Shown here: piece by piece, positions 1 to 13,779 of the stretch
How the letters are laid out: the number at the start of each line of letters is the position of its first letter
Numbering within the stretch: position 1 is the first letter of the stretch
From: Planctomycetia bacterium
GTDB lineage: Bacteria; Planctomycetota; UBA1135; UBA2386
Reading direction: 5' to 3'
Length of the DNA: 47,377 bases
Assembly (NCBI GenBank): GCA_005776365.1
Contig: SXPK01000181.1
Coordinates: forward strand, 1-47,377
Notes under the pieces: generated by a model
Told to the model about the DNA's origin: nothing
The model's input: only the letters and a program-made list of their open reading frames with translations
Database searches by the model: none
Position numbers and translations under genes: made by a program

Positions 1-39
1 GCCGCGGCGCTCAGCAAGCTCAACCTGCGGCGCAACTGA
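1..39 (+). CDS. tex: 3' end (last 12 codons plus TGA) of a Tex/YhgF-like S1-domain transcription accessory protein; the gene body lies upstream of the window
   Basis: Frame 1 reads [12 protein letters not shown]. The same 49-nt block recurs at 3189-3237, where it ends a 112-codon fragment ([40 protein letters not shown]). That fragment matches the C-terminal S1 domain of E. coli YhgF/Tex. Whether this copy belongs to the intact gene cannot be seen from the window. Confidence 0.55.
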   Translation, partial: AAALSKLNLRRN

Positions 40-234
40 GCGCCGCGGGTCCGCGTTCGCAGCGGCGCGATCAGCAACCCGTGGGCGAGTGGATTCGTCG
101 TCGAGCGAGTTGCAGCCGAGTCGAGATCAAGAAGTGCGACCGGAGTCGAATCCACGCTTTCGGCGCAACTCGCACGACTCAGAGGTCAGCCCGGATATCG
201 CGCTCGCAGGCAGCATGCGCTCTTCCACGCGCTG

Positions 235-519
235 TCAGCGCTTCTGCGCCAAGAGGACCCGAATCACCTGCGGCGAGGCAGCGACGCCTGCGCGCAGTGA
301 AGCCGCCGTCCGCCCGACGAGAACAGGGCCGTCTTGCGTGGTCCGTGCCTCCACCAGCAGCGAGCTCTCTCCTTCAGGCAGCCAGAACTCGAATGGCTGC
401 AGGATGGCGTTGCGGAGAAGCGGGATGTCAAAACCGAACTGCTCGCTCACGAGTCGCACAACTCCGGCTGTCGGCCTGGGGCCTGCGCTGTCGACGCTCG
501 CTTCGAACCTGCACCTCAC
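235..519 (-). pseudogene. Displaced duplicate of the last ~94 codons (including stop) of the 547..2175 gene; orphan C-terminal cassette
   Basis: VRCRFEA..GVVRLVSEQFGFDIPLLRNAILQPFEFWLPEGESSLLVEARTTQDGPVLVGRT..VIRVLLAQKR* aligns residue for residue with the C-terminus of the 542-aa protein (VKCRYEA..GVVRLQNAELGLDVPFLRNNAMQPFEFLLPEGENSVVVEARTTQEGPVLVGRT..VVQVLLAPKR*). It is in the same frame, 312 nt downstream. The 'start' is a GTG that corresponds to an internal Val. Confidence 0.6.
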
Positions 520-546
520 CAGGCGAGGCTGCTTCGAGCGCGAACT

Positions 547-2175
547 TCAGCGCTTCGGAGCCAGCAGCACCTGAACCACCGGCTGCGGCGCAGAACCATC
601 GGCGCGAATCGTGATCACAGTGCGCCCCACGAGAACTGGCCCCTCCTGCGTCGTGCGCGCCTCGACAACCACCGAGTTCTCACCCTCGGGCAAGAGGAAT
701 TCGAATGGCTGCATGGCGTTGTTCCGGAGGAACGGGACGTCGAGACCCAACTCCGCGTTCTGGAGTCGAACCACCCCGGCCGACGGCCACGGCCCTTCGC
801 CGTCGAATCGCGCCTCGTACCTGCACTTCACCAAATTGCGATCGAACACCACCCTTGCCTCGGCCCTGCCCCCCTTGGCAAGCGTGACCGTTGCAGCGGA
901 CTGCGCCTTGGCCAAGGCCTGAAGCACATCGTCGTAGAAATCCACGCGCCACGTCCCGGTCGGGAGTGTCATCCAACCATCCGTGTCCTCCCCCTTTGGC
1001 TTCACTAGGAGGTTGCGGTCGCCCGGCCAGTCCTGTGTGAGGTCCCCGATCAGTCGAAACATCGAATCCGGCAGCCTCTTCCCAGCAGCATCCGTGACGA
1101 CCGCTCGGAGGCTACCGAATCCATCGTGTAGTGCACCGCGCGGCGGCTCGATCCTCTGGGGCGCAACAAACTCGTCAGCGGGAACTGCCTTGCAGGTGGC
1201 CACGAACGGTTGGCGTCCGGCAATCCACAAGGTAACGCGCGGATCCCAGACTTGCGCCGTTCCCGCCGGGTAGGCCGGGAGGGCCATCGTGACGACCGCA
1301 TCGGGAAACTGCTTCTGGATGCGTGCCGCGATGCGGTCGCACGTCCACGACGCTTCTCCGTTCTCAGGGAGGCACAGCGAGTTGCCCAGCAGTTGCGCCT
1401 TCCAGGTCACGACTCCGGACTCAGGAAGATCCACTGCAATCACGCGAGGGGTCAGGAATCTCGCGGTCACTGTGTGCCGACCGGCATCACGAAAGACAAT
1501 ACTCCTCCCCTCTTCCTGCGCATGTTTGCAGAAGGCGCGATCCTCATGCATGCCCTGCAGAAACAGGATACCTGCTGCCGGGAACTCGAAAGGGCCGATG
1601 CTCGCCCTCCCCATCTCGTCGGTGACAGCAGACGGAGCCGAGTCCTCCGACATCAGTTCGGCTCGAGGCATTCGGTAAGGTCGGACCCAGAATCTGGCGC
1701 CCGACAATGGTCGAGACTCATCGAGCACCGCCTGTATGTCGATCGTGATCGCCGGACGCAGACGCACAATTGTGTTATCGCCAGTCAGTTCCACCTCTTC
1801 TTCAGGCAAATAGCTGTCATGGGAGACTCCGATGGCATGCGCCATCGCCGTGGGAACGAAGCTGACATTGCCCGCTTCGTCGGAGACATGCTCGACCCCA
1901 TCGTATCGCACCACGGCCCCGCGAACTGGCCGATTGTCGCGCGTCAGAACCTGCACGATGGCTCGCGTGAGCGAGATGCGATCCGTAGCTGGATTGGTAG
2001 GAACCTCCCCAGCCAGGGCCGTGGATCGAGACTCGCCGCTTCCACCAATCCCTGCGCCGGAAGGGAGCGTCGCCGGGACGTCGCGACCGACTTGCATCAG
2101 GAGCCATACGACGAGCGCTGCCCCGGCGAGCAGAAATGCACCAGCCGCCAGCCGCGCCCGCACTACCCCTGACAC
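547..2175 (-). CDS. Membrane-anchored exported protein with CarboxypepD_reg/Ig-like beta-sandwich domains (hypothetical)
   Basis: 542-aa ORF. N-terminal TM/signal anchor (RARLAAGAFLLAGAALVVWLL). The stretch IVQVLTRDNRPVRGAVVRYDGVEHVSDEAGNVSF resembles the carboxypeptidase-regulatory-like fold. The start overlaps the upstream gene by 13 nt. Confidence 0.75.
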   Translation of the reverse strand: MSGVVRARLAAGAFLLAGAALVVWLLMQVGRDVPATLPSGAGIGGSGESRSTALAGEVPTNPATDRISLTRAIVQVLTRDNRPVRGAVVRYDGVEHVSDEAGNVSFVPTAMAHAIGVSHDSYLPEEEVELTGDNTIVRLRPAITIDIQAVLDESRPLSGARFWVRPYRMPRAELMSEDSAPSAVTDEMGRASIGPFEFPAAGILFLQGMHEDRAFCKHAQEEGRSIVFRDAGRHTVTARFLTPRVIAVDLPESGVVTWKAQLLGNSLCLPENGEASWTCDRIAARIQKQFPDAVVTMALPAYPAGTAQVWDPRVTLWIAGRQPFVATCKAVPADEFVAPQRIEPPRGALHDGFGSLRAVVTDAAGKRLPDSMFRLIGDLTQDWPGDRNLLVKPKGEDTDGWMTLPTGTWRVDFYDDVLQALAKAQSAATVTLAKGGRAEARVVFDRNLVKCRYEARFDGEGPWPSAGVVRLQNAELGLDVPFLRNNAMQPFEFLLPEGENSVVVEARTTQEGPVLVGRTVITIRADGSAPQPVVQVLLAPKR

Positions 2176-2606
2176 TTACATGCCTCCACCCAGGCGCCGG
2201 GGAAAGCAAACAGGTGATTGGCAGAGCACTTGAACGTCTCTGTAGGGCACGCCTGTAGCTCCGTGCATTCTACAGCGGACGTCTGTTGATCCTCTTCGAA
2301 GTCGGGATTGATCACTTTCCCGCTGCAGTAGCAGTTCGGGGCCTTGTAGGACCCATCTGCCTGGAGGCATCCACACACTCGCACTTGGGTGCCGTCCGCG
2401 AGCACGGTTGGGATGTTCAGACAAGCACCCTCTCCCGGTAGGCAATTGGAATTGCAGTTCGCGACCTCCCACTCGAGAGAGAACCAGTTGAAGCGCACCT
2501 GCACCGTGCAGTAGCACGGATCCGACTGCGCCATCAACGATCCATCGAGCACGAATGCCACCGCCACAACGAGCACAGACGCCACTCTGGAGTTCCAACT
2601 TCTCAT
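2163..2606 (-). CDS. Small secreted cysteine-rich protein (147 aa, 14 Cys in the mature part, four CxC motifs)
   Basis: Signal peptide MRSWNSRVASVLVVAVAFVLDGSLMAQS. The mature region contains CYC (twice), CGC and CKC motifs. Local GC is about 58% by hand count of line 2221-2280, lower than core genes. It overlaps the next gene by 13 nt. Confidence 0.7.
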   Translation of the reverse strand: MRSWNSRVASVLVVAVAFVLDGSLMAQSDPCYCTVQVRFNWFSLEWEVANCNSNCLPGEGACLNIPTVLADGTQVRVCGCLQADGSYKAPNCYCSGKVINPDFEEDQQTSAVECTELQACPTETFKCSANHLFAFPGAWVEACKCQG

Positions 2607-2791
2607 ACTTGGACAGTACCCCGCCCCCCCCTTGCTCAGTCAAGACCGGGGAACATGCATCGCCAAGGGTAGTTGAAACCGGGAGGCGGCTCCCTGTCTG
2701 CGGCACGTTCGACTGAACCTCGTCCTCGAGCCACGGGGTTGAAGGCGACTAGAGCTCCGTCGCCAGAGAGGCACCTCGCCGCCCCACTCCC

Positions 2792-2887
2792 TCACCCGCT
2801 GCGCTGCTTCGGCGGCGTGCGGAAGCCCTTCCGCACGGGCTGCATCTGCCCCATCTCCGGCGGCGGCGTCTCGAAGCCGAGCGCGTA
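2792..2887 (-). pseudogene. Fragment: last 31 codons plus stop of the membrane/TPR-like gene whose intact copy is at 11641..12375
   Basis: The 96 nt are about 95% identical to 11641-11736 (5 mismatches by eye). It encodes YALGFETPPPEMGQMQPVRKGFRTPPKQRSG*, versus ..YALGFETPPPEMGQMQPVRKGFRTPPKQRGG* in the intact gene. Homology ends abruptly at 2887. Confidence 0.85.
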
Positions 2888-2888
2888 G

Positions 2889-3227
2889 CAGGACGGCCTC
2901 GTGCACATCAGCCAGCTGTCGGATCGCTTCGTCGAGGACCCGCGCGAAGTCGTCAAGGCCGGCCAGATCGTCCAGGTCAAGGTCGTCGAGGTCGACATCC
3001 CGCGCCAGCGCATCGCGCTGACGATGAAGCTGCACGAACGGCCGGCGGCGGGGCGCGGCGACAGCCACGCGACCGCAGGCTCGGGCGGCGCGCGCAGCAG
3101 CGGCGGCAGTCGCGATCCGCGCGGCAACCGCGACCTGCGGCCCGCGCCGGCTCCGCGCAAGCCCGAGCCCGAGGTCGTGAGCCCGCTCGCCGCGGCGCTC
3201 AGCAAGCTCAACCTGCGGCGCAACTGA
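2889..3227 (+). pseudogene. tex: Fragment: C-terminal 112 codons (partial S1 domain plus tail) of tex
   Basis: It starts inside the conserved S1 motif (..[64 protein letters not shown]) with no N-terminal Tex domains. It is fused 1 nt away from the TPR-like gene fragment. Its last 49 nt are identical to 1-49. Confidence 0.85.
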
Positions 3228-3380
3228 GCGCCGCGGGCGAGGTGTCCTCCGCAGAAGGACAGCTTCGACCCACGGCCTCGACACACTGCAGGACCAACCC
3301 ATCGGCAGCGACAAGGTGCGCCGCCACTGCATGCCGTCCGTCCCCCACGCCGTCAGGAAGAGCTACAGCCCTCGCCAACA

Positions 3381-4283
3381 TCAGTTTGCAGGCAGCTCGA
3401 TCGCCAATGCGGGGCGGAAGCCGATGAAGTCTCGCCGCGCATGCTGGTGCAGGCTGGCGCGCTGGGAAAGCTTCGCCCCATCGGCGTCAGCGACCCAGGA
3501 ACCACCCACCAGCTCGTAGTGGGAATGCGTGTGGTTGGCGACCAAGCACCATTCCTCGACGTTGCCCACCAGATCGAAGAAGCCCGCGGCGTTCGGGGCG
3601 AAGCTCCCCACCGGAGCAATCACCGCATAGCCATCGTCGCACGGCACCGGCACGTTGAACTCCGGGAAACGACGAGCGCCGGCGCGGTCCTGCAGGTTGG
3701 CGTGTCGACAGGCATCCCCGCCTTCATCACCCCAAGGGAATCGCGTCGCCGCTCCGGCGCGAGCTGCGCGCTCCCATTCGGCCGCCGTTGGCAGGCGGAG
3801 CCCGAAGTGAGCAGTGAAGGCCACGGCATCGGCAGCCGAGAGATACAGCACCGGCAGATCGTCGCGCAGTTCCTCGGTGCCGAGCAGCGGGAAGATCCGG
3901 CTCCAGTTCGCCTGCTCGTGCCACTCGCGACCGCCCGCAGACGTCGCCGTGAACGCGCCGACAGCAGGATGGTCAGGGTCGTCGAGCACACCCCGTTCGG
4001 CATCGCTGCGGTAGCCGGTCTCGGCCACGAACCGCCGCCAGCTGCCCACGGTGAGTTCGGTTTCGGCCAGAAACAGCGCGTTCGCGGATGCATCCCCGGG
4101 CACCAGCCGCAGAACCACACCGCTGCGACGATGCGTCGCTCGCTTCGGCAGTCCGCTCCTGGCGTCGACACCAGCCGTCGGGTCCGGCTCGAGATCCGCC
4201 AGCGATATCGGTTTCGCAAGGGACGCGCAGCCTGCGCAGAGAAGGGCGAACAGAGCGCTCGCTACCAGACGGAGGTGTGACAT
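3381..4283 (-). CDS. FGE-sulfatase (SUMF1/formylglycine-generating enzyme family) domain lipoprotein
   Basis: I chose the start at MSHLRLVASALFALLCAGCASL (lipobox-like LCAGC), giving 300 aa. C-terminal motifs VGNVEEWC, LVGGSWV and FIGFRPAL are typical of PF03781. The longer ORF to 4400 would run through the tex-repeat copy. Confidence 0.8.
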   Translation of the reverse strand: MSHLRLVASALFALLCAGCASLAKPISLADLEPDPTAGVDARSGLPKRATHRRSGVVLRLVPGDASANALFLAETELTVGSWRRFVAETGYRSDAERGVLDDPDHPAVGAFTATSAGGREWHEQANWSRIFPLLGTEELRDDLPVLYLSAADAVAFTAHFGLRLPTAAEWERAARAGAATRFPWGDEGGDACRHANLQDRAGARRFPEFNVPVPCDDGYAVIAPVGSFAPNAAGFFDLVGNVEEWCLVANHTHSHYELVGGSWVADADGAKLSQRASLHQHARRDFIGFRPALAIELPAN

Positions 4284-4335
4284 GAGATCGCCTTGCGTCA
4301 CGGACGCCAGGGACAGGCAGTCTACGTAACTGCAC

Positions 4336-4406
4336 GCCGCCCCGAGCCCGAGGTCGTCAATCCGCTCGCGGCGCAGCTGGCGAAGCGCAACCTGCGGCAC
4401 AACTGA
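4336..4406 (+). pseudogene. tex: Short diverged fragment of the tex 3' end (last ~21 codons plus stop)
   Basis: Reads PEPEVVNPLAAQLAKRNLRHN*, versus [21 protein letters not shown] in the other copies. It is followed by the same gcgccgcggg block, then t-cgc-ttcgca as after copy 1. Confidence 0.7.
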
Positions 4407-4433
4407 GCGCCGCGGGTACGCATTCGCACTCCG

Positions 4434-6056
4434 TCACCGCAGCCAGAAGTCGCGCCGCGCGGTCCATACATCGAGGCCGGTCGCCGGATCCAGCACCAGC
4501 CACTGCACGGCAAAGCGACGGCCGCCGATCGTAGCGGGCAGCACCGGCAGGTCGAAGGCGGCATAGCCGCGGTCGATGCCGGACACGCCGGTCGTCTTTG
4601 CGCCGACGAAGTCCATCGGCACGAGCAGGGAACAGCCGGGGAAGCCGAATCCGTCGAGGCCGATGGGCAGGGACAGGCCACCCGTCGTCGTGGCGACGCC
4701 GTCGCCGAGGATGCACCACGCGAGCGCGCCCGGGGGTGCGTTCGCGATCTGCAGGCGGGAGCCGGTCGGCGTGGACCGGAAGCCGGGGACCATCGCGGTG
4801 CCGAGGTTGGCACAGGCGGAGCCGGACAGGGTGGAGCGGCGCGGTTCGCTGCGCCAAGCCTGGATCGTGCCAGCACCCTGTCCATAGTCGAGGAAAGTCA
4901 ATGCATGCACAGGGTGAGGGCTCCCCGGCTGGACTCCGAGTTCCGCCACGAACAAACCATAGTCGCCTTGCACCGGGAATCGACTCTGCTGCGTGTGGTG
5001 CAGGATAGCCCCGTCCCTCGACGAGATCACCTGCACTGCGCCCCAGACATATTGTTCGGGCTGGCATCCGGGACACGCAAACAGCACGTCGGGAATGCCA
5101 TCGAGATCCGCGTCGAACTTGGCGCTGACTGGCGAGCCAAGCTGGAAGTTCGGGTCCTGCCAGACTCGGATGATGGAGCCATCGGCCCCGGACCATGCGA
5201 CTGCAACCTGCCGTTGCGAGGCCACACTGTCGGCGTTGCTCGCCAAGTAGTCTGCGACGCCGTCCAGGTCGAGGTCTCCCGCCAGAGCGACGGTGCCACC
5301 GAGCAAGTCATAGGCTTGCAGGCCGGGATGGAATCGCAGCAGTGTCCCGGTTCGCCCCGAATACAGGAACGCCCCGCCTTCGGCTCTTGCCCCACCGATG
5401 GCGCCGACGAGGAAGTCCTCGCCACCGTCCCCATCTCGATCGCCGACGTTGGCGATGCTCTGGATCACCCAGCCGTGGACCGATGCCGGGATGACGTAGC
5501 GGAGCGCGCCGAGGTGATCGTAGGCGTAGAGGCTGGAATCGAAGGAGCGCGCCGTCGCGGCCAGGAGGTCACTCAGTCCGTCGCCATCGAGATCGATGCG
5601 TGGCTCCTTCGCGAAGCCGAACATGCCAGGGCCGGGCGGGAGAAGATTGAACAGTTCGATTCCCCGCCGGGGGGAGTAGACATGGATCACGAAGCTCGAT
5701 GACCATGTGTACTCGTCGTAGCCATCGCTGTCGAAATCACCGGCCCATTGCGGGTTGTCGATGCCCCAGAACAGCATGTGCTGATGGAGTTGGGATCCAT
5801 CGCGTCCCGACAGGATGCAGACGCTGATTTGCGTGACCGGGCCTTGGCCCGCGCTGCGGTAGGCAAGCAAGTCGCGATAACCGTCGCGGTCGTGATCGCC
5901 GAAGGCCGAGCATGCGTTGTAGCCGGAGTATGCGGCCGCCGGGATCTCCCAAATCATCTGTTGCCCCAGCAGAACTCCGGCCGGGAAACAATGCGTAATC
6001 AACCACCTCGACCAGTCCATGGCAACCGGCCTCCTCAGTTGACGATCTGGATCCAC
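4434..6056 (-). CDS. FG-GAP/VCBS repeat (integrin-alpha-like beta-propeller) protein with a C-terminal shared module
   Basis: Repeated Ca-binding-like loops: GDHDRDGYRDLL, GDFDSDGYDEY, DLDGDGLSDLL, GDRDGDGGEDFLVG, GDLDLDGVADYL, FDADLDGIPDVL. The start is uncertain (6056, or the Met at 6020). It overlaps or abuts the upstream gene end at 6035. Confidence 0.8.
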   Translation of the reverse strand: MDPDRQLRRPVAMDWSRWLITHCFPAGVLLGQQMIWEIPAAAYSGYNACSAFGDHDRDGYRDLLAYRSAGQGPVTQISVCILSGRDGSQLHQHMLFWGIDNPQWAGDFDSDGYDEYTWSSSFVIHVYSPRRGIELFNLLPPGPGMFGFAKEPRIDLDGDGLSDLLAATARSFDSSLYAYDHLGALRYVIPASVHGWVIQSIANVGDRDGDGGEDFLVGAIGGARAEGGAFLYSGRTGTLLRFHPGLQAYDLLGGTVALAGDLDLDGVADYLASNADSVASQRQVAVAWSGADGSIIRVWQDPNFQLGSPVSAKFDADLDGIPDVLFACPGCQPEQYVWGAVQVISSRDGAILHHTQQSRFPVQGDYGLFVAELGVQPGSPHPVHALTFLDYGQGAGTIQAWRSEPRRSTLSGSACANLGTAMVPGFRSTPTGSRLQIANAPPGALAWCILGDGVATTTGGLSLPIGLDGFGFPGCSLLVPMDFVGAKTTGVSGIDRGYAAFDLPVLPATIGGRRFAVQWLVLDPATGLDVWTARRDFWLR

Positions 6057-8044
6057 CCTGCCGGCGAAGGAACACCTCCCGCCGTCAGGACGAACACCAT
6101 GTAGTAGCCTCGCGGAGCCAAGGCCTCCTGAGGCATGGAACAGATCACGCTGGACGTGCCCCCATTGAGTTCGATGGTGCCGCCGATCTGCTCCAGCTCG
6201 ATGTAGCGTGCGTGCATGTCGCTGTGGTGGGTCAGGGACCCCGGCGCCATCAGCACGACCTTGCCCATGCCGACTTGCTTCGGCAACCTCAGGCTGATGG
6301 TCAGTGGCGAGCTGTAGAGCAGCTGCACCGAGCCGTCGGGATTCGTACCAGGACTGGTCGACTGCGTGATCCCGAGGATCGTCGGCCGTGGGCGCGTCAT
6401 GTACCAGGGAGAGTAGATCTCGTAATCGAATGACGGCGAGCCCAGACTGTGTCGACCTTCTCCACCCCCCACGAGGACACGCCCGTCCGGCAGAAGCAGC
6501 GCTGTTGCATGGTATAGGCGCGGAGTCGACGCCGAGGGGAGCAGACCCCAGACCCCGTCCTTGAACAGTTCGGCCTCTCTTGCAATCGTCGCCAACTGTG
6601 GGTTGTTCACTGAGTCGATGCCACCGACTGCTAGTATGGAGGCGTCAGGAAGGATGAGCGCATTCAACCAGCCACGGGCATGGATCATATCCTCGCCCTC
6701 CCACCAGGGCGTGCCGGACGCCCCAGCGGCATCGAAGATTGCCTCCGTGGTGCTCGTCGCGGGACTGAAGGCAGGCGCAAAAGGCGATCCGACGAACCCG
6801 CCAATTCGGGCAATAAAGTCGGTCTGCGTGCCCGAACGGGCGAACAACACGCTTGCTCCATCGTGACGAGTCACCCAGGAGGCAGGGGGATTCCCGAGCC
6901 CGATGCTGCTCTGGCCGGTGAAGTAGTTCCAAGTGCCGGCTTGCGACGGCGGCACCTCGTGTTGCGTCTTGGCCGAGAGTGGCTCGTAGCCACTCATGAA
7001 CACCTCCGCGGAGGTGAGCCAATGCATACGGGGGTACTCTTCGAGCTCCTGGACTCCCGAGCCGTTGTCCGGCCCCTCAAAAGTGAAAATAGGCCCCTGC
7101 GAACCCGGGACGGAGTCAGGCTGAAGGCCTTGCTGCGTAGCCGGAACTGTGGGGTTGAGTACCCTCAGTGCCTCATAGGTGTTCCAAGTCGGATTCTGGG
7201 CAGGCGCGCCACCGATCACGATGGAGCCACCGCTCACCAGGGCAACCTCGCGTCCCGCAGTTCGGTTGAGTCGACTCGTGAGCGTCACCGTCGGGTAGTA
7301 GCTCCGATCCGCAAGCGCAGGCCCATAGATCCACTTGCCATGTGCTCCACCGTAGAGAGCTTGCCCCGTGAAGTCGTTGGTCCAGGTGTTCCCCAGAAGT
7401 TGCGGCCAGGCCTGCCCCACCTCGTCCGGCCGGTATAGCATCACGATCGCCGTTCCTTGCGTCCCGTTGGAGTCGCCGCCTGCGACAATCAGATCGCCGT
7501 ATGGCGACCAACAGTGCCCTGCGCAGAACAGTCCCTCCACGACCCAGTTCTCGGGGGCAGGAGTGATGACGATCGGATGAACAGGGAGCAAGAAGTTCTG
7601 GAAGCGTGGCCCCGTCGGAGCCACGGCAGGATCGACGATCGACCAACACTGGAATGACCACGGCTGGTTGCCTGCGGCGTAGGAGCCATTGGGCTGCCGC
7701 ATGTACTTTCGCGAGTCCCAGACGATCACCTTGCCTCGGTCCTTGCCGCGCGGGATGAGCGACATGTGAATCGCGTTGAACCGGGCATCGAAGTCGGCGG
7801 AGTATGCGGTCGACCCTGGAAAAGGCTGCAGGTGATCCGTTGCGGACGCATGTGGCGAAACCTCATGGTTGAACGCCATTGTCCACTGACCCAGATACGG
7901 ACTCGCCTGCGCGTCAACGACATCACCTACGCAGACTGACGTCAGCAGCGCACTAAGTGTCCCCAACCAACCCTTCCGACCGAACATCGAGCTCACATGC
8001 CTTCCTCGGTTCATGGTGCTACTCCGGGCATCGAGATCGCGCAT
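6035..8044 (-). CDS. Glyoxal oxidase / galactose oxidase-like copper radical oxidase family protein (kelch-like propeller plus DUF1929 E-set C-terminus)
   Basis: 669-aa ORF with a signal-like N-terminus (GWLGTLSALLTSVCVG). LYHATALLLPDGRVLVGGG and the C-terminal YYMVFVLTAGGVPSPAGWIQI are typical of Glyoxal_oxid_N plus DUF1929 proteins. The start may be an internal Met (about 8014). Confidence 0.75.
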   Translation of the reverse strand: MRDLDARSSTMNRGRHVSSMFGRKGWLGTLSALLTSVCVGDVVDAQASPYLGQWTMAFNHEVSPHASATDHLQPFPGSTAYSADFDARFNAIHMSLIPRGKDRGKVIVWDSRKYMRQPNGSYAAGNQPWSFQCWSIVDPAVAPTGPRFQNFLLPVHPIVITPAPENWVVEGLFCAGHCWSPYGDLIVAGGDSNGTQGTAIVMLYRPDEVGQAWPQLLGNTWTNDFTGQALYGGAHGKWIYGPALADRSYYPTVTLTSRLNRTAGREVALVSGGSIVIGGAPAQNPTWNTYEALRVLNPTVPATQQGLQPDSVPGSQGPIFTFEGPDNGSGVQELEEYPRMHWLTSAEVFMSGYEPLSAKTQHEVPPSQAGTWNYFTGQSSIGLGNPPASWVTRHDGASVLFARSGTQTDFIARIGGFVGSPFAPAFSPATSTTEAIFDAAGASGTPWWEGEDMIHARGWLNALILPDASILAVGGIDSVNNPQLATIAREAELFKDGVWGLLPSASTPRLYHATALLLPDGRVLVGGGEGRHSLGSPSFDYEIYSPWYMTRPRPTILGITQSTSPGTNPDGSVQLLYSSPLTISLRLPKQVGMGKVVLMAPGSLTHHSDMHARYIELEQIGGTIELNGGTSSVICSMPQEALAPRGYYMVFVLTAGGVPSPAGWIQIVN

Positions 8045-8194
8045 TCCCTGCGCGTGGGATTTGGCAACCCAGCCCGGTCGAGGTCGAACGAGCCGTTACC
8101 GACCGGGCTAATGTTCCGGGGCGGACCGAATCGGTCAACCCCTGCGGCGCAAGCGGAAGCTCGCATGGCACCAAGCGGGGTTCGCAGGCCCTCT

Positions 8195-8489
8195 CCTCGC
8201 GGATCCGAGGGAGGCCGTGAAGGCGGGGCAGATCGTGCAGGTGAAGGTGCTGGAGGCGGACCTGCCGAGGCAGCGCATCGCGCTGACGATGGAGCTGCAC
8301 GAACGGCCGGCTGCGGGGCGCAGCGACAGCCACGCGGCCGCAGGCTCGGGTGGCACGCGCAGCAGCGGCGGCTACAGCGTCGGCGGCAATCGCGACCCGC
8401 GGCCCGCGCCGGCTCCGCGCAAGCCCGAGCCCGAGGTCGTGAGCCCGCTCGCCGCGGCGCTCAGCAAGCTCAACCTGCGGCACAACTGA
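8195..8489 (+). pseudogene. tex: Fragment: C-terminal ~97 codons of tex (diverged allele)
   Basis: ..[48 protein letters not shown]. By eye it is about 97% identical to copy 2889-3227 over the last ~120 nt. Identity falls to about 70-75% in the S1-coding 5' part, with many synonymous changes. Confidence 0.85.
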
Positions 8490-8708
8490 GCGCCGCGGGC
8501 AGGGCCGGGGCACGCGTTGATCGCAGCCAGCGGTCTCGGCACGCGCGTTGGGCGCACGCCGCGACATCGACATCGGCGGGGACATTCCCGCATCGCCATC
8601 GATCTTCGGCCCGCTTCCACACTCACGCGGAACACAGCGCGAGGCCGCGCCGTCGGCTGCGGCCTCCGCCAGGACCGCAGACACTGGGACGCCTTGGCGC
8701 CTTGATTT

Positions 8709-8727
8709 TTCGAACTAGTAGTTCGAA
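8709..8727. promoter_or_regulatory. AT-rich perfect 8-bp inverted repeat (ttcgaact-agt-agttcgaa), 13 nt upstream of the ATPase start; candidate operator/promoter element
   Basis: Read directly: ttgatttttcgaactagtagttcgaatattcaacctcgATG. This is the only markedly AT-rich patch in the region. Confidence 0.35.
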
Positions 8728-8739
8728 TATTCAACCTCG

Positions 8740-9894
8740 ATGACCTCTCGCACCAAGCCGTTGGCGCGACTCACGGCCCTTTTCCGCGAGTTCCCCGTGG
8801 TCGCAATCCTAGGGCCGCGTCAGGTCGGCAAGACAACGCTTGCGGGGCAATACGCAGAGTCGTCGTCCGGTCCGGTGCACACGTTCGACCTCGAGCGGCC
8901 TGCGGACCTTCGCAAACTCGCCGACCCGATGCTGGCTCTCGAGGACCTGACCGGCCTCGTGGTGCTCGACGAGATCCAACGCTTGCCGGAGGTCTTCCCC
9001 GCGCTGCGCGTCCTGGCCGACCGCCCGAGACGCAAGGCGCGGTTCCTCGTCCTCGGCAGCGCGTCCCCGGAGCTGCTGGCGCAGAGCAGCGAGTCGCTTG
9101 CTGGCCGCATCGCATACCTGGAACTGAACGGCTTCCAGCCTGCGGAAGTAGGCCCCAAGCTCGTCGATCGCCTGTGGTTGCGCGGCGGATTCCCTCGCTC
9201 GTTCCTGGCGCGCAGTGACGCGGCGAGCTTCACCTGGCGCGAAGAGTTCGTTCGGACCTTCCTCGAGCGGGACCTGCCCCAATTCCGCGTGGCGACTCCG
9301 GCGACGACGATGCGCCGCTTCTGGACGATGCTGGCCCACTACCACGGCCAGATCTGGAACGCATCCGAACTTGCGCGCTCGCTGGGCCAGAGCGACCCGA
9401 TGGCGCGTCGCTACCTCGATGTGCTGGCAAACACGCTCGTCGTGCGTGTGCTGCAGCCCTTCCACGTCAACCTGAAGAAGCGGCAGGTGAAGTCCCCCAA
9501 GGTCTACATCGCCGACTCGGGGTTGCTGCACGCACTGTTGGGGCTGCCGACCACGGATGCCCTGCGCGGACATGCGCGCGCAGGAGCATCGTTCGAGGGC
9601 TTCGCGATGACTGCGGTCATCGAAGCGCTCGAGGCTCGACCCCACGAGTGCTTCTTCTGGGCGACATTCAGCGGGGCAGAACTCGATCTCTTGGTGCAAC
9701 GAGGGGATCGGCGCGTGGGATTCGAGTTCAAGCTCTCGTCAGCTCCAGAACTCACGCCCTCGATGAAGATCGCGCTCTCAGATCTCGAACTGCGGCATCT
9801 CTGGGTCGTGCACGCCGGCAAGGACGTGATCCGACTCGCCCCGCAAGTGACCGCGATCCCGCTCGCGCAGGTTGCGACGACGCGGCTGTGGTGA
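8740..9894 (+). CDS. AAA-type ATPase with DUF4143 domain (ATP-binding protein)
   Basis: Walker A (ILGPRQVGKTTLA), Walker B-like (LVVLDEIQRLPEVF) and a DUF4143-like region (KVYIADSGLLHALLG). Confidence 0.85.
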   Translation: MTSRTKPLARLTALFREFPVVAILGPRQVGKTTLAGQYAESSSGPVHTFDLERPADLRKLADPMLALEDLTGLVVLDEIQRLPEVFPALRVLADRPRRKARFLVLGSASPELLAQSSESLAGRIAYLELNGFQPAEVGPKLVDRLWLRGGFPRSFLARSDAASFTWREEFVRTFLERDLPQFRVATPATTMRRFWTMLAHYHGQIWNASELARSLGQSDPMARRYLDVLANTLVVRVLQPFHVNLKKRQVKSPKVYIADSGLLHALLGLPTTDALRGHARAGASFEGFAMTAVIEALEARPHECFFWATFSGAELDLLVQRGDRRVGFEFKLSSAPELTPSMKIALSDLELRHLWVVHAGKDVIRLAPQVTAIPLAQVATTRLW

Positions 9895-10086
9895 ACGCAA
9901 TGCGCGGAGCCCTGCAGTCCCGCGCATAGCAGCCAGACCCTCGCGATCCGCGGCACCCCGCGCCCTTCGCCAGCCCCCCCGCCGGGCAAGGTGCCCGAAA
10001 CCACAGAATCCGCGTGCTATCGCGTGCGCGCATGCAGGAACGGTCCTTCCCGGGGCAACCCAAGCCCAACCGAGAGACCGAACGCC

Positions 10087-11538
10087 ATGTCCACCGCCTC
10101 GATCCGCCTCCTCGCCCCCTTCGCCCTGTGCGCCGCCGCGGCAGCCCAGTTCCAAGAGGGCCTCATCACCTTCTCCGCGGCCGAGCAGACGCTGTCCGGC
10201 AGCGGCGGCACCGTGCTGCGCGCCCTGCGCCCCAACGAGACCAACGTCATCGAATGGGGCACCACCTCGGCATGCGCGACGCTGTCGGCCGAGAAGTGGG
10301 CGCCGCGCACCGCCTACGGCACGATGGCCGGTGACGAGAACGCGGACGGCCTGCTCAACAACGCGACGCTGTTCGGCTCCGTCGACGCGCTGGTCAGCAC
10401 GAGGAACGCGGGCGGATCCGGCTGGCAGAACCAACGCACGGTGTTCTGGTCGGTGTCGGCGCCGATGGGCAACGCGGTCAGCGCGCAGCCGTTCCGCCCC
10501 GGCGACGTCGCGCGCATCGTGCGCACGCCGCTCTTCATCGACGGCCAGGTCGAGCACTTCATGCGCATGGAGCAGTTCAACCAGGCGCTCGGACTGCCGC
10601 TCCTCACGCCGATCGACGTCGACGCGATCGCCTTCGACCCGCAGTTCGGCGTCTACTTCTCGCTCGACGCGGACATCGTCTGCAACACGGCCTGCGGGCC
10701 GATGCTGGTGCAGGATGGCGCGGTGGTCTGCGTGCCGCCGATGGCGCTGACCTACACGCCCGACATGCGCATCGCCGCCGTCGCGCCGAACAGCGCAATC
10801 GTCGTGCTGACCGAGCCGCAGATCGACGCCATGACGCTGAATGCCGGCGTCACCAATCGCTTCGGCGCGTGCCTGACGAACGCCATCGATCTCGAATCGC
10901 TCGAGTTCGACATGTCCTCGCCGGTGACGCCGTGGTTCGGCTGCACGGCCGGACTCGCAGTGTTCTCGACGCAACTGATCTTCTCGGTCGAGACCGGCAC
11001 CGGCGCCAGCCTGCTGACGACCAACGGCGGCGGACAGATCTGGAACGGCCCGTGCTCGCCGATGGGACGCCCCTGCGGCTCCGGCCCGACGCTCGGCATC
11101 CAATCCGGCGTCCGCCCCGTCAGCGGCAACGTCGGCTGCGTGAGCTACGTGAACGCGTTCCTGCTCGAGCACACGAACCGCTACGTGCTCGAACCGCAGA
11201 ACCACGTGCTGACCGTGTTCCCGGCTGGCGCGCCCGCGGGCTCGACCAACATCGACGTCGGCTCGCCGTTCCCCTTCAACTTCGTGTTCGTCGAAGTCGT
11301 CTCGCCGATCGTGCCCGCCTCGCTGCCGGCCTTCCCCTTCTCGCAGATGTTCTTCCCCGATCTGTATGCGACGAGCCTGACCTTCTACACGACGACGACG
11401 GCTGTCGGCGGCTTCGGCAGCTTCCCGATGCCGGCGATCCCGCCGGGGTTCAGCGGCAAGGTGCTGTTCCAGAGCGTCGGAATCTCGACTGCAGGAACGT
11501 TCGAACTGAGCACGCCGGCGCTCATCGACGTGATGTGA
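10087..11538 (+). CDS. Secreted hypothetical protein (483 aa) with the C-terminal shared module
   Basis: I chose the start at MSTASIRLLAPFALCAAAAAQ (signal peptide). No recognisable catalytic domain. The C-terminus (..FPMPAIPPGFSGKVLFQSVGISTAGTFELSTPALIDVM) resembles the tails of 4434..6056, 23896..25959 and 26086..28935. Confidence 0.75.
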   Translation: MSTASIRLLAPFALCAAAAAQFQEGLITFSAAEQTLSGSGGTVLRALRPNETNVIEWGTTSACATLSAEKWAPRTAYGTMAGDENADGLLNNATLFGSVDALVSTRNAGGSGWQNQRTVFWSVSAPMGNAVSAQPFRPGDVARIVRTPLFIDGQVEHFMRMEQFNQALGLPLLTPIDVDAIAFDPQFGVYFSLDADIVCNTACGPMLVQDGAVVCVPPMALTYTPDMRIAAVAPNSAIVVLTEPQIDAMTLNAGVTNRFGACLTNAIDLESLEFDMSSPVTPWFGCTAGLAVFSTQLIFSVETGTGASLLTTNGGGQIWNGPCSPMGRPCGSGPTLGIQSGVRPVSGNVGCVSYVNAFLLEHTNRYVLEPQNHVLTVFPAGAPAGSTNIDVGSPFPFNFVFVEVVSPIVPASLPAFPFSQMFFPDLYATSLTFYTTTTAVGGFGSFPMPAIPPGFSGKVLFQSVGISTAGTFELSTPALIDVM

Positions 11539-11562
11539 GCTGACGCGAGCGCGCGAAATGCG

Positions 11563-11596
11563 AACGGCCGCTGCGGCACATGCCGCGGCGGCCGTT
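11563..11596. terminator. GC-rich hairpin between convergent genes (candidate bidirectional intrinsic terminator)
   Basis: aacggccgctgcggc-acat-gccgcggcggccgtt forms a 15-bp stem with one G-T mismatch. It is followed by gttcgtttgt, and lies between the stop at 11538 (+) and the stop at 11641 (-). Confidence 0.55.
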
Positions 11597-11640
11597 GTTC
11601 GTTTGTAGTGGCTCGCGATCTCACGCCAGCGACGCGCCGC

Positions 11641-12375
11641 TTACCCGCCGCGCTGCTTTGGCGGCGTGCGGAAGCCCTTCCGCACCGGCTGCATCTGCCC
11701 CATCTCCGGCGGCGGCGTCTCGAAGCCGAGCGCATACCACACGACGCCGAATGGCTTCATCGACATCTTCTTGCCGTTCTGCAGGCGCAGCAGGTTGTCC
11801 TTGCTCGCCTCGGCAGTGAGATTCTTTCGTGTAAATCGGGACAGCACCGCAATCGCGTCGCCAATGCGCTCATCTCTTGCGAGCAAGAAGCCGTGCACGT
11901 TGTGCAGCAACTCGTGCTTCTTGCTGAATGCAGAAGCCAGATGCAGGGTCTGGAATGCGGCAGCCTTGTCGCCTCCCTTGTATTGCATCACGCCAAGCAC
12001 GATCTGCCCGTCGGGAAGGCGCCGGGACGACTTCTTGAGCAGGTCCAATGCCTCGTCGCGCTTGCCCAGCTGATAGGCAATCATGCCCATCTGCGCATAG
12101 ATCTGGCCTTCGAGCAGCGGCATCCATTTGCCGCGAGGCAGCATCGCGCGAAGGCTCTGCATCGCGAGATCTGGCATGCGCGCCTCGAGCTGCTTCTGCA
12201 CGGTCAGCATCATCGGTTGCAGCTTCTTGCCGACGCGGCGAACGATCACGATCCAGGCTGCAAGGGTCAGCACGAGCGAGAACAGGATGGCCCAGACCCA
12301 GTGCCACCAGTCGAGGGCGAAGCCGCCGAATCCAATGAGGAGGCCGATAGCCGCGGAAAGTAGGACAGAGTGCAT
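11641..12375 (-). CDS. Membrane protein with two N-terminal TM helices and a TPR-like cytoplasmic/periplasmic region (hypothetical)
   Basis: I chose the start at MHSVLLSAAIGLLIGFGGFAL (244 aa); the ORF extends to 12420. Helical repeat-like region: GQIYAQMGMIAYQLGKRDEALDLLKK. Its 3' 96 nt are duplicated at 2792-2887. Confidence 0.75.
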   Translation of the reverse strand: MHSVLLSAAIGLLIGFGGFALDWWHWVWAILFSLVLTLAAWIVIVRRVGKKLQPMMLTVQKQLEARMPDLAMQSLRAMLPRGKWMPLLEGQIYAQMGMIAYQLGKRDEALDLLKKSSRRLPDGQIVLGVMQYKGGDKAAAFQTLHLASAFSKKHELLHNVHGFLLARDERIGDAIAVLSRFTRKNLTAEASKDNLLRLQNGKKMSMKPFGVVWYALGFETPPPEMGQMQPVRKGFRTPPKQRGG

Positions 12376-12471
12376 GTGGTTCGATTGCGAGGGCGAACAG
12401 GGTAGGCGGGCGCGCGGCAAGGTCGATGCGAAAGTCCGCTTCCTGCCGCGCTTGCCCGCGCTGCGCAGCCA

Positions 12472-13779
12472 GTGGACAGTCCACGACCCATGCCAAGACG
12501 GACCCGCTGGACCTTGCTGTGGCTAGCACTCGCAGCGATCGTGGTCATCCGCGCAGGCGATCGAAAGCCGCACCGTGGCGTGATCCTCGACCACCTGGAG
12601 TTCGGCCGCAGGCTCATGGCCGGCGAGGATGTCTACGCGACCTGGAAGTCCGATCTCGACGCGCCAAGCAAGCCGCTGCACGCGCCCTATCCTCCGTCGT
12701 TCGGCCTGCTCACAGCGCCATTTTCGATCGTGCACGAGACGCTCGGGCTGACTACCGCGCGCGTCACCTGGGCGTTGCTGCAAGTGCTCGCGATCCTGCT
12801 ATTGCTGAGGGCGATCTGGCGCATGCCGTTGCCACCACCCTCGACCAGCGAACAGGAGCGCCGCTGGATTTCGCTTCTTGTGCTGCTGCTGTTGTCGCGA
12901 TTGTTGCTGCGCGACACGCACGGCGGCGGCGGCAACCTGATCAATGTCGCGATGTGCGCGATCGCGTTCGCAGACGCCGAGCGCGGAAAGGAAGCTCGCG
13001 CCGGTTGGTTGCTCGGGTTCTCGCTCGCAACCAAGCCGACGCAAGCGTTCCTGTTGCCGCTGTTTTTCCTACACGGCCGCAAGCGCACCGTCGGCCACGC
13101 GCTGCTCTGCGGCGCGTCGTGCGTCGGGCTCAGCCTGTTGTTGCTGCGCGGCGACGTGGCGCCGTGGCTGCGTTGGCTCGAGGGTTCGCTCGCGCTCGCG
13201 CAACAGACCGACGCGTTTGCAGCGCCGGCGCTGCAGTTTCCGGAGTTTGAATGGATGAACCAGTCACTGCGTTGCGCGACGGCGCGGTGGATCAGCGAGG
13301 TCCCGCCCGAGTTCGCGCAGCGCGTCGCGTGGGGCGTGATGCCGGGCCTTGGCCTTTCCGCTACTGCCGCGTCTTGGTCCGCGCGGGCCATCTTGTTTGC
13401 GATGCTCGCATGGCTGCTCACAGCCGCATGGGGCGCACGCCACGTCATCAATGCCGCCGAGTCTCCATCGCGCGCCAACTTGCGCACGCGACAGTTCGCC
13501 GCCGCGCTCGCGTTCTCGCTGCTCGCGTCTCCTCTCAGCTGGAAAGGGCACCACGTCGCGCTCGTGCCGATGTTCTGTCTGCTGTGCTTGCACTCATGGC
13601 GGACGAAGTCGCGGAGCACCATCGCGTTGCTCGCCGCTTGGTTTCTTTGCTGCGGCATCGGGCAAGCCATCATCAGCGACGACGGCGATGAGTGGCTCAA
13701 CAGCGTCTACGTGATGCCGGCATTCGACGTGTTGCTGTTCGTCGCGTTGTTGCGAGCACGCAGCAACGCTTCTCAGTGA
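12472..13779 (+). CDS. Polytopic membrane glycosyltransferase, GT87/DUF2029 (PimE-like mannosyltransferase) family
   Basis: More than 9 predicted TM segments, an N-terminal loop (RLMAGEDVYATW) and a GGGGNLINVAMCAIAF segment typical of DUF2029. The start is GTG 12472 or ATG 12490. Confidence 0.7.
   Translation: MDSPRPMPRRTRWTLLWLALAAIVVIRAGDRKPHRGVILDHLEFGRRLMAGEDVYATWKSDLDAPSKPLHAPYPPSFGLLTAPFSIVHETLGLTTARVTWALLQVLAILLLLRAIWRMPLPPPSTSEQERRWISLLVLLLLSRLLLRDTHGGGGNLINVAMCAIAFADAERGKEARAGWLLGFSLATKPTQAFLLPLFFLHGRKRTVGHALLCGASCVGLSLLLLRGDVAPWLRWLEGSLALAQQTDAFAAPALQFPEFEWMNQSLRCATARWISEVPPEFAQRVAWGVMPGLGLSATAASWSARAILFAMLAWLLTAAWGARHVINAAESPSRANLRTRQFAAALAFSLLASPLSWKGHHVALVPMFCLLCLHSWRTKSRSTIALLAAWFLCCGIGQAIISDDGDEWLNSVYVMPAFDVLLFVALLRARSNASQ

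What the first reader, a model, noticed from the sequence alone, without database searches (positions are those of the whole stretch)
2792..3227. Permuted back-to-back junction of two gene 3' fragments (TPR-like gene tail | tex internal), a signature of circle integration or tandem duplication
At 2887/2889 the last 31 codons of the minus-strand membrane/TPR-like gene (intact copy at 11641-12375, about 95% identical) are joined almost bluntly to an internal point of the S1 domain of plus-strand tex.

In the chromosome these two genes are convergent flanks of the accessory stretch (tex-> ... <-TPR gene). The junction places them in the permuted order: TPR stop->internal, then tex internal->stop. 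There are two ways to get exactly this. One is a segment running from inside tex to inside the TPR gene that was circularised and re-inserted by a single crossover within the tex homology. The other is the novel joint of a tandem duplication of that segment.

The cargo on the two sides is different (235-2606 versus 3381-11538). The incoming unit therefore carried an alternative allele of the hotspot.
Basis: partly seen in the sequence, partly recalled or inferred. Interest (0 to 1): 0.65.

Follow-up and report, generated by a model that had tools for sequence, protein, structure and literature searches.

The report
Recombination scar at tex hotspot
A freshwater planctomycete carries a scar where a foreign version of a variable gene cluster, still attached to the last 96 bases of the neighbouring gene, was added inside the end of the housekeeping gene tex; this is an ordinary kind of recombination footprint, though a clean example.

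Summary
2791-2890 is a 94/100 copy of the 3' tail of the TPR-like gene 11641-12420, and there are only two copies in the genome. It abuts, with at most 4 nt of shared sequence, a tex fragment (2889-3237) that starts at position 29 of 74 of the S1 domain.

In same-genus genomes tex and the TPR-like gene are convergent flanks of a variable stretch. A 556-kb contig from another assembly (L042) carries tex tail - cargo A - intact TPR gene. It is 97.9% identical to window 1-2890, against 82-92% for the flanking core DNA, and the homology stops at exactly 2890. The left unit is therefore a foreign allele that arrived with a piece of its right flank.

Best reading (0.6): one homologous exchange in tex plus one illegitimate joint. 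This is either Campbell insertion of a circularised fragment or homology-facilitated illegitimate recombination; the two cannot be separated because the contig starts 49 nt before the tex stop region ends. An in-situ tandem duplication is disfavoured, and no recombinase domain was found in the nine cargo ORFs scanned.

The joint is unique to this contig and has only indirect support from the source run's contigs.

The scan had already noted the four tex-end copies on this window. The case is a new member of a known kind and of modest interest.

The parts
1..49 (+). tex-end repeat, copy 1, at the contig edge. It covers the last codons of tex, the stop codon and a GC hairpin. What lies upstream is not assembled.
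   Evidence: 100% identical to 3189-3237. The window is the whole contig C164. In G002 and in L054-L057 the same downstream sequence (98-99% to window 1-522) follows an intact tex. In L042 it follows a 68-nt tex tail fragment.
235..2606 (-). Cargo A. It holds an orphan 94-aa ORF (235-519, the 3' remnant of a second allele of the 542-aa gene), the 542-aa exported protein (547-2175) and a Cys-rich 147-aa secreted protein (2163-2606).
   Evidence: No Pfam family for any of the three. 97.9% identical to L042rc 7202-10087. 98.8% identical to L054-L067 over 467-2531.
2607..2790 (.). Donor-type spacer between cargo A and the TPR tail. Positions 2777-2790 are the 14 nt that lie downstream of the TPR stop codon in other genomes.
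   Evidence: Contiguous with cargo A and the TPR gene in L042. 2777-2890 matches G002, L043 and L044 but not the window's own 11626-11639.
2792..2888 (-). Fragment of the TPR-like gene: stop codon plus its last 31 codons (donor allele).
   Evidence: 94/100 to the window's own intact copy and 96/100 to L042. It shares the TCA stop and two further sites with L042 rather than with the resident gene.
2885..2890 (.). The illegitimate joint. It has at most 4 nt (ACCA) of microhomology and two private substitutions (2885, 2888), one of which makes an in-frame TAG just before the tex fragment.
   Evidence: Comparison with intact tex and intact TPR sequences. The joint sequence is found only in window-derived loci among the 67 loci fetched at that point.
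2889..3237 (+). tex 3' fragment, copy 2. It runs from mid-S1 through the low-complexity tail, the stop codon and the hairpin. It stays in frame and has a private 15-nt deletion.
   Evidence: Pfam S1 positions 29-74. About 98% identical at SNP level to intact tex of L042 and L054-L057.
3381..4283 (-). Cargo B: an FGE-sulfatase (SUMF1-like) lipoprotein gene, the first gene of the resident allele.
   Evidence: Pfam PF03781, E 1e-35. Orthologues at 90% nt identity sit in unrelated contexts in L068 and L069.
4341..4416 (+). tex-end repeat, copy 3 (tail only). It is followed by cargo C: an FG-GAP gene (4434-6056) and a galactose-oxidase-like gene (6035-8044).
   Evidence: The same junction is present in G004. 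In G003 the FG-GAP gene follows intact tex.
8194..8500 (+). tex 3' fragment, copy 4. Its S1 part has decayed and its tail is 97% identical to copy 2. It is followed by an AAA_14/DUF4143 gene (8740-9894) and a 515-aa gene (9991-11538).
   Evidence: In L042 the AAA gene directly follows intact tex.
11641..12420 (-). Intact resident TPR-like membrane protein gene, the right-hand core flank of the hotspot.
   Evidence: Found in 18 of 24 other genomes of the family, one match in each. Weak TPR Pfam hits.

Best explanation
The joint at 2888/2889 is the scar of one allele-addition event at a recombination hotspot between the core genes tex and a TPR-like gene.

DNA came from a related lineage whose locus read tex(-tail) - cargo A - TPR gene. 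It recombined with the resident locus, which read tex - FGE-sulfatase - ... - TPR gene. On the left the exchange was homologous, inside tex or its tail; this step is inferred because it lies off the contig. On the right the incoming DNA ended 96 nt inside the donor's TPR gene. That end was joined illegitimately, at 4 nt or less of microhomology, to a point in the middle of the S1 domain of the resident tex; this step is shown.

The result keeps an intact tex upstream, adds cargo A, and pushes the resident tex 3' end downstream as a dead fragment (2889-3237). The same product arises whether the incoming piece was first circularised and inserted by a single crossover (Campbell type) or was linear (homology-facilitated illegitimate recombination).

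The other tex-end copies at 4341-4416 and 8194-8500 are older scars of the same kind of event.
For: - The permuted joint is confirmed, and both pieces are unique gene tails, not dispersed repeats.
- The donor-type allele exists. L042rc 7202-10087 is 97.9% identical to window 1-2890 and runs on into an intact TPR gene. Homology to the window ends at exactly 2890.
- Core DNA of the same two genomes is only 82-92% identical on either side, so cargo A plus the tail was exchanged recently.
- The tail fragment carries the L042-type bases at 2793, 2810 and 2837, and its 14-nt downstream flank is unlike the resident one.
- tex and the TPR gene are convergent flanks with different contents in G002, G003, G004, L042 and L054-L067. 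tex 3' fragments with different left ends also occur in G003, G004 and L042.
- No recombinase domain was found in the nine cargo ORFs scanned with Pfam, and no tyrosine-recombinase match lies on the contig.
- In the probable source run X1 the perfectly matching contigs of cargo A, cargo B-C, the AAA-gene/515-aa-gene stretch and the TPR gene all have depth 10.8-14.8. The cargo A contig enters the TPR tail, yet the TPR gene's depth is not doubled. A tex contig begins one base before 2889. Together these fit a short joint path that was pruned from the contig graph.
Against: - The joint itself is not seen in any independent data. No listed contig of X1 bridges 2867-2889.
- In a word search of 2840-2940 the best runs hold only 3 of 7 sampled words, and X1 is not listed.
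- The joint is absent from all 65 other loci fetched at that point.
- The left crossover is not observable, because the contig starts in the tex-end repeat and the bin lacks the tex body.
- In L042 cargo A follows a 68-nt tex tail rather than an intact tex, so the exact donor structure is uncertain.
- Ku was not found in five genomes of the genus, which are 62-91% complete. A Ku-type end-joining route to a circle therefore has no support.
Confidence: 0.6

Rival explanations
1. In-situ tandem duplication of the segment from mid-S1 of tex to 96 nt inside the TPR gene. One copy's content was later replaced by a different allele through homologous recombination.
For: The permuted joint is exactly what a duplication join point looks like, with little or no homology at the join. 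Other tandem duplications exist in this hotspot, such as the a'/a modules with S repeats in L054-L067.
Against: The two copies share no cargo. The tail fragment and its 14-nt flank are of the L042 type rather than copies of the resident gene. Replacing the left copy would need a crossover within the last few dozen bases next to the joint. This route needs two events where one suffices.
Confidence: 0.12
2. Assembly artefact: two co-occurring strains, one with cargo A next to the TPR gene and one with tex next to cargo B, were stitched into one contig.
For: The genome is a 283-contig MAG. Run X1 holds at least one more related strain, because summed depth is about double over 8247-12152 and over 1-434. 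The joint is missing from Logan contigs and from the word index. The contig begins in a repeat.
Against: A de Bruijn assembler cannot invent a joint that has only 4 nt of overlap. Depth is uniform (10.8-14.8) over all perfectly matching pieces. The TPR contig starting at 11687 is unbranched and not doubled, so no intact TPR gene continues from cargo A in X1. A contig boundary falls exactly at the tex side of the joint.
Confidence: 0.15
3. Site-specific insertion. Small integrase-less cassettes are moved in trans by a recombinase that recognises the hairpin at the tex stop codon, in an integron-like or tycheposon-like way, and the joint is a by-product.
For: All four tex-end copies stop within a few bases of the same hairpin. 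Each cassette can sit directly after a tex end in some genome. A second array of repeated gene tails lies on contig C252.
Against: No recombinase was found in the cassettes scanned or, for tyrosine recombinases, on the contig. The left ends of the tex fragments differ: mid-S1, the start of S1 in G003, or 68-76 nt tails. The unit at this joint carries 96 nt of a neighbouring core gene, which precise excision would not include.
Confidence: 0.06

Closest known systems
Homology-facilitated illegitimate recombination (described in Acinetobacter, Streptococcus pneumoniae and Pseudomonas stutzeri, and in E. coli conjugation; PMC3240628; references 41, 42 and 47 of PMC5361080)
   Same: Foreign DNA is added using homology on one side and an illegitimate joint at little or no microhomology on the other. 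Here the joint has 4 nt or less of microhomology and the inserted DNA is demonstrably foreign.
   Different: The homologous anchor is not observable here. The illegitimate joint lies inside the anchor gene, so a duplicated 3' fragment of tex remains. The classic experiments mostly give insertion-deletions downstream of the anchor (own knowledge).
3'-end (C-terminal) displacement arrays at rhs, CDI and T6SS effector loci (Kirchberger et al. 2017, PMC5361080; Jackson et al. 2009, cited there)
   Same: Incoming modules enter at the 3' part of a conserved gene and push older 3' ends and their companion genes downstream. This builds arrays of orphan 3' fragments. HFIR is the mechanism proposed there too.
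   Different: There the displaced ends are variable toxin domains with immunity genes, under diversifying selection. Here the displaced end is the conserved tail of a housekeeping RNA-binding protein and the cargo is unrelated exported proteins. This joint also carries a piece of the far flank gene.
Campbell-type insertion of a circular molecule, and tandem-duplication join points (textbook bacterial genetics; own knowledge)
   Same: The permuted order of the two flanks at one novel joint, and a direct repeat of the recombined homology (the tex end) on both sides of the added DNA.
   Different: No circle has been observed. The two 'copies' carry different cargo, so this is not a simple duplication.
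Tandem arrays of integrative elements at gene 3' ends, for example tycheposons at tRNA genes in Prochlorococcus (bioRxiv 10.1101/2020.12.28.424599)
   Same: Repeated partial 3' ends of one target gene punctuate an island of swapped cargo.
   Different: No integrase was found on the contig or in the cassettes scanned. The repeat lengths vary from 49 to 349 nt. The unit at this joint includes neighbouring core-gene sequence.

Membership tests
Tandem duplication join point | A novel joint that places the right end of a segment directly before its left end | tested here: met
   TPR tail (stop to internal) is followed by tex (internal to stop) at 2888/2889.
Tandem duplication join point | The two copies on either side of the joint carry the same sequence | tested here: not met
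   235-2606 and 3381-11538 share no genes. The TPR tail is 94% identical to the resident gene and of the L042 type.
Homology-facilitated illegitimate recombination / Campbell insertion of foreign DNA | The inserted DNA is of foreign origin relative to its flanks | tested here: met
   97.9% identity to L042 over 1-2890, against 82-92% for flanking core DNA.
Homology-facilitated illegitimate recombination / Campbell insertion of foreign DNA | One end is joined without homology or at a few bases of microhomology | tested here: met
   At most ACCA is shared, with two private substitutions at the joint.
Homology-facilitated illegitimate recombination / Campbell insertion of foreign DNA | The other end is resolved by homologous recombination in a shared anchor (tex) | not testable with these tools
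   The contig starts 49 nt before the end of the tex-end repeat. The tex body is missing from the bin. SNPs in 2889-3237 do not discriminate donor from recipient.
Site-specific integrative element at a gene 3' end | An integrase or recombinase encoded in or next to the element | tested here: not met
   The Pfam scan of the nine ORFs chosen as cargo genes found no recombinase domain. PF00589 matches lie only on four other contigs. Serine recombinases and transposases were tested only through the Pfam scan of the cargo.
Site-specific integrative element at a gene 3' end | Defined element ends with the same att core on both sides and no flanking chromosomal DNA carried along | tested here: not met
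   The unit carries 96 nt of the TPR gene plus its 14-nt downstream flank. The left ends of the tex fragments differ.
Integron cassette array | IntI integrase, attI and attC sites | tested here: not met
   No tyrosine recombinase lies on the contig. No Rfam or structured element was found in 1-13000 apart from a sub-threshold sRNA match. The repeats are gene tails, not attC sites.

The most novel reading that the evidence does not exclude
The hairpin at the tex stop codon is an attachment site for a recombinase acting in trans (or some other dedicated machinery). That machinery would insert promoter-less single- or few-gene cassettes of exported proteins in freshwater planctomycetes. It would give integron-like arrays at housekeeping-gene 3' ends, with a second array on contig C252. 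The TPR-tail joint would then be an aberrant product of that system.
Probability: 0.06. Interest if true: 0.7.

Novelty: new member of a known kind. Interest (0 to 1): 0.3.

Why it matters
The locus gives a nearly complete natural record of how an accessory-gene hotspot between two core genes grows. The donor-type allele, the resident allele and the scar that joins them can all be read. The record shows gene gain by one homologous and one illegitimate exchange in an uncultured freshwater planctomycete, a group where mechanisms of gene exchange are little studied.

It also explains why dead 3' ends of tex punctuate the island. It does not reveal a new mechanism.

Tried and rejected
- **Dispersed-repeat idea for the 96-nt block:** rejected. 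There are two copies in the genome, and the gene is single-copy in relatives.
- **Upstream tex:** looked for it, but it is not on the contig. C130 holds only the tex start, and C87 holds a different Tex-like gene that is 32-36% identical.
- **Direct read support:** only Logan contigs were available. One read-laying run and two run searches did not show the joint.
- **Exact-protein look-ups:** the window's own Cys-rich and FGE proteins, and the L042 Cys-rich protein, found nothing. One 50,276-nt contig that carries the same Cys-rich protein was not shown.
- **SNP mosaic of 2889-3237:** compared against six intact tex genes to place a crossover. It is uninformative, because tex is about 98% identical among the relevant lineages.
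- **Recombinases:** no tyrosine recombinase on the contig.
- **Ku:** not found in the genus.
- **ComEC:** present in all five genomes, but it is too widespread to count as evidence of competence.
- **GC content:** cargo A and C at 62-64% do not differ from the TPR gene itself, so composition gives no signal.

Full report
**What is there.** The window is the whole of contig C164 of a 283-contig, 65%-complete MAG. Relatives are titled Planctomycetota or 'uncultured Singulisphaera sp.' and come from lakes and rivers.

Positions 2791-2890 repeat 11640-11739 at 94/100. That is the stop codon and last 31 codons of the minus-strand TPR-like gene 11641-12420 (30 of 31 residues identical). There are only these two copies in the assembly. 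The gene was found in 18 of 24 other genomes of the family, one match in each.

From 2889 the plus strand encodes, in frame, the last 112 residues of Tex. The fragment matches Pfam S1 from profile position 29 of 74. It is 91% identical to residues 758-874 of a complete Tex in locus L042, which has the Tex_N, central, YqgF, HHH and S1 domains.

Intact tex genes read ..GGCGTGCAC|CAGGACGG. Intact TPR-like genes read, on the plus strand..GAGCGCATAC|CACACG. The window reads ..GAGCGCGTAG|CAGGACGG. The two parents therefore share at most ACCA at the joint. The bases at 2885 and 2888 are private to the fragment, and one of them makes a TAG just before the tex fragment.

**Corrections to the description.** The intact tex is not in the window. 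The contig begins with 49 nt that are identical to 3189-3237 and then diverges. The bin holds only the tex start at the edge of C130, and a different Tex-like gene on C87.

The tex end occurs four times: 1-49, 2889-3237, 4341-4416 and 8194-8500. All four stop within a few bases after a GC hairpin that straddles the stop codon.

Between them lie:
- cargo A (an orphan 94-aa ORF, a 542-aa protein and a Cys-rich 147-aa protein; no Pfam family);
- an FGE-sulfatase gene;
- an FG-GAP gene plus a galactose-oxidase-like gene;
- an AAA_14/DUF4143 gene plus a 515-aa gene.

None of the nine cargo ORFs scanned with Pfam has a recombinase domain. No tyrosine recombinase lies on this contig.

**The locus in relatives.** In same-genus genomes tex and the TPR-like gene are convergent flanks of a variable stretch.
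- G002 has tex - a divergent cargo A - remnant of the AAA gene - 515-aa gene - TPR.
- G003 has tex - FG-GAP gene - a tex fragment (the whole S1 domain plus the tail) - TPR.
- G004 has FGE-sulfatase - tex tail - 515-aa gene - TPR.
- Seven more distant genomes of the family and order have the TPR-like gene but no tex within about 17-19 kb on its 3' side.
- Metagenome contigs L054-L067 mostly read tex - a' - a - AAA remnant - 515-aa gene - TPR.
- Contigs of other runs join cargo A to the 515-aa gene, or a tex tail to the 515-aa gene.

Every cassette is thus found directly after a tex end somewhere. tex fragments with different left ends occur in at least four genomes.

**The decisive comparison.** L042 is a stretch of a 556-kb contig from another assembly. 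It reads tex - AAA gene (96.8% to window 8702-9897) - 68-nt tex tail - cargo A - intact TPR gene.

Its cargo A stretch is 97.9% identical to window 1-2890, and the homology ends at 2890, which is the joint. The core DNA of the same two genomes is 88-92% identical left of tex, 82% across the TPR gene and about 70% further right.

The tail fragment agrees with L042 at 2793, 2810 and 2837, where the resident gene differs. The 14 nt below its stop codon are of the type seen in L042 and G002, not the resident type.

So the unit left of the joint is a recently exchanged foreign allele that arrived together with the last 96 nt of its own right-hand flank gene. The one difference is that the L042 allele is not 'cargo A and nothing else'.

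**Is the joint real?** Direct support could not be obtained. In the probable source run X1, Logan contigs match the window perfectly over 20-2867, 3208-8367 and 8338-12934, but none listed bridges 2867-2889. A word search of 2840-2940 found runs that hold at most 3 of 7 sampled words, and X1 was not among them. The joint sequence is absent from all other loci fetched at that point.

Indirect evidence favours it.
- All perfectly matching pieces have depth 10.8-14.8.
- The cargo A contig runs 30 nt into the 47-nt stretch shared by the two TPR tails. The contig that continues from that stretch into the TPR gene is unbranched and has depth 14.8, not about 25. Cargo A therefore does not continue into a TPR gene in that sample.
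- A 215-nt tex contig begins one base before 2889, which marks a branch of the graph exactly at the joint.
- A k-mer assembler cannot create a joint from a 4-nt overlap.

I put the joint at about 85% real.

**Mechanism.** One homologous exchange in tex (inferred) plus one illegitimate joint (shown) accounts for three things in a single event: the foreign cargo, the foreign TPR tail, and the displaced resident tex end.

The product is the same for a circularised fragment inserted by a single crossover and for a linear fragment integrated by homology-facilitated illegitimate recombination. SNPs in 2889-3237 cannot place a crossover, because tex is about 98% identical among the relevant lineages. 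Ku was not found in five genomes of the genus. ComEC is present in all five but is uninformative.

An in-situ tandem duplication needs a second event and does not explain the donor-type tail. Site-specific insertion is contradicted by three things: no recombinase was found, the left ends of the fragments vary, and core-gene sequence was carried along.

**Comparison with known systems.** The closest described cases are the 3'-end displacement arrays of rhs, CDI and T6SS effector loci. The same one-sided recombination was proposed for them (PMC5361080). The experimental work on homology-facilitated illegitimate recombination is also close (PMC3240628 and the references in PMC5361080). Arrays of partial target-gene ends also mark serial integrase-driven insertion, for example tycheposons (bioRxiv 10.1101/2020.12.28.424599), but the defining integrase is missing here.

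The case is a new member of a known kind: a clean scar in an unusual host and at a housekeeping gene. Interest is 0.3.

Noticed in passing
window 72-235: The spacer between tex-end copy 1 and the orphan 94-aa ORF is a copy of a dispersed repeat of about 165 nt. At least 38 copies (66-85% identity) lie on 35 other contigs of this MAG, and L042 has one too. It has no Rfam match.
   Followed up: partly
L047 (G000 contig C252) 2325-2419, 6192-6540, 9683-10031: A second array of the same architecture in the same genome. The 3' tail and downstream flank of a minus-strand 711-aa gene (9853-11988) are repeated twice more at 98-99% identity. Unrelated genes without Pfam families lie between the copies.
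   Followed up: partly
window 235-519; L054-L057, L062 and L063 (partial in L061): The orphan 94-aa ORF is 99% identical to the 3' end of a second, 68%-diverged allele (a') of the 542-aa gene. That allele stands in tandem with the first in other freshwater contigs. The window seems to have lost most of a'.
   Followed up: partly
window 3380-4338; L068, L069: The FGE-sulfatase gene is 89-90% identical in DNA to genes in two contigs with unrelated neighbours. The homology starts at the stop codon and ends about 20-55 nt upstream of the start codon, so the unit shared between contexts is the size of one gene.
   Followed up: partly
window 8838-9614: Many other populations (G002, L054-L064, run X4) carry the AAA_14/DUF4143 gene with the same internal deletion of about 776 nt. 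The window and L042 have it intact.
   Followed up: no
G000 contig C87 955-4224: A second Tex-like open frame (1089 aa open, 32-36% identical to the genus Tex) has a long basic C-terminal extension. It could be a paralogue or binning contamination.
   Followed up: no
L028 (G003) 3043-3322: G003 has a tex fragment directly next to its TPR-like gene. It has the complete S1 domain, an internal deletion and the tail. The sequence downstream of it resembles window 3238-3262, the short hairpin that follows tex-end copy 2.
   Followed up: partly
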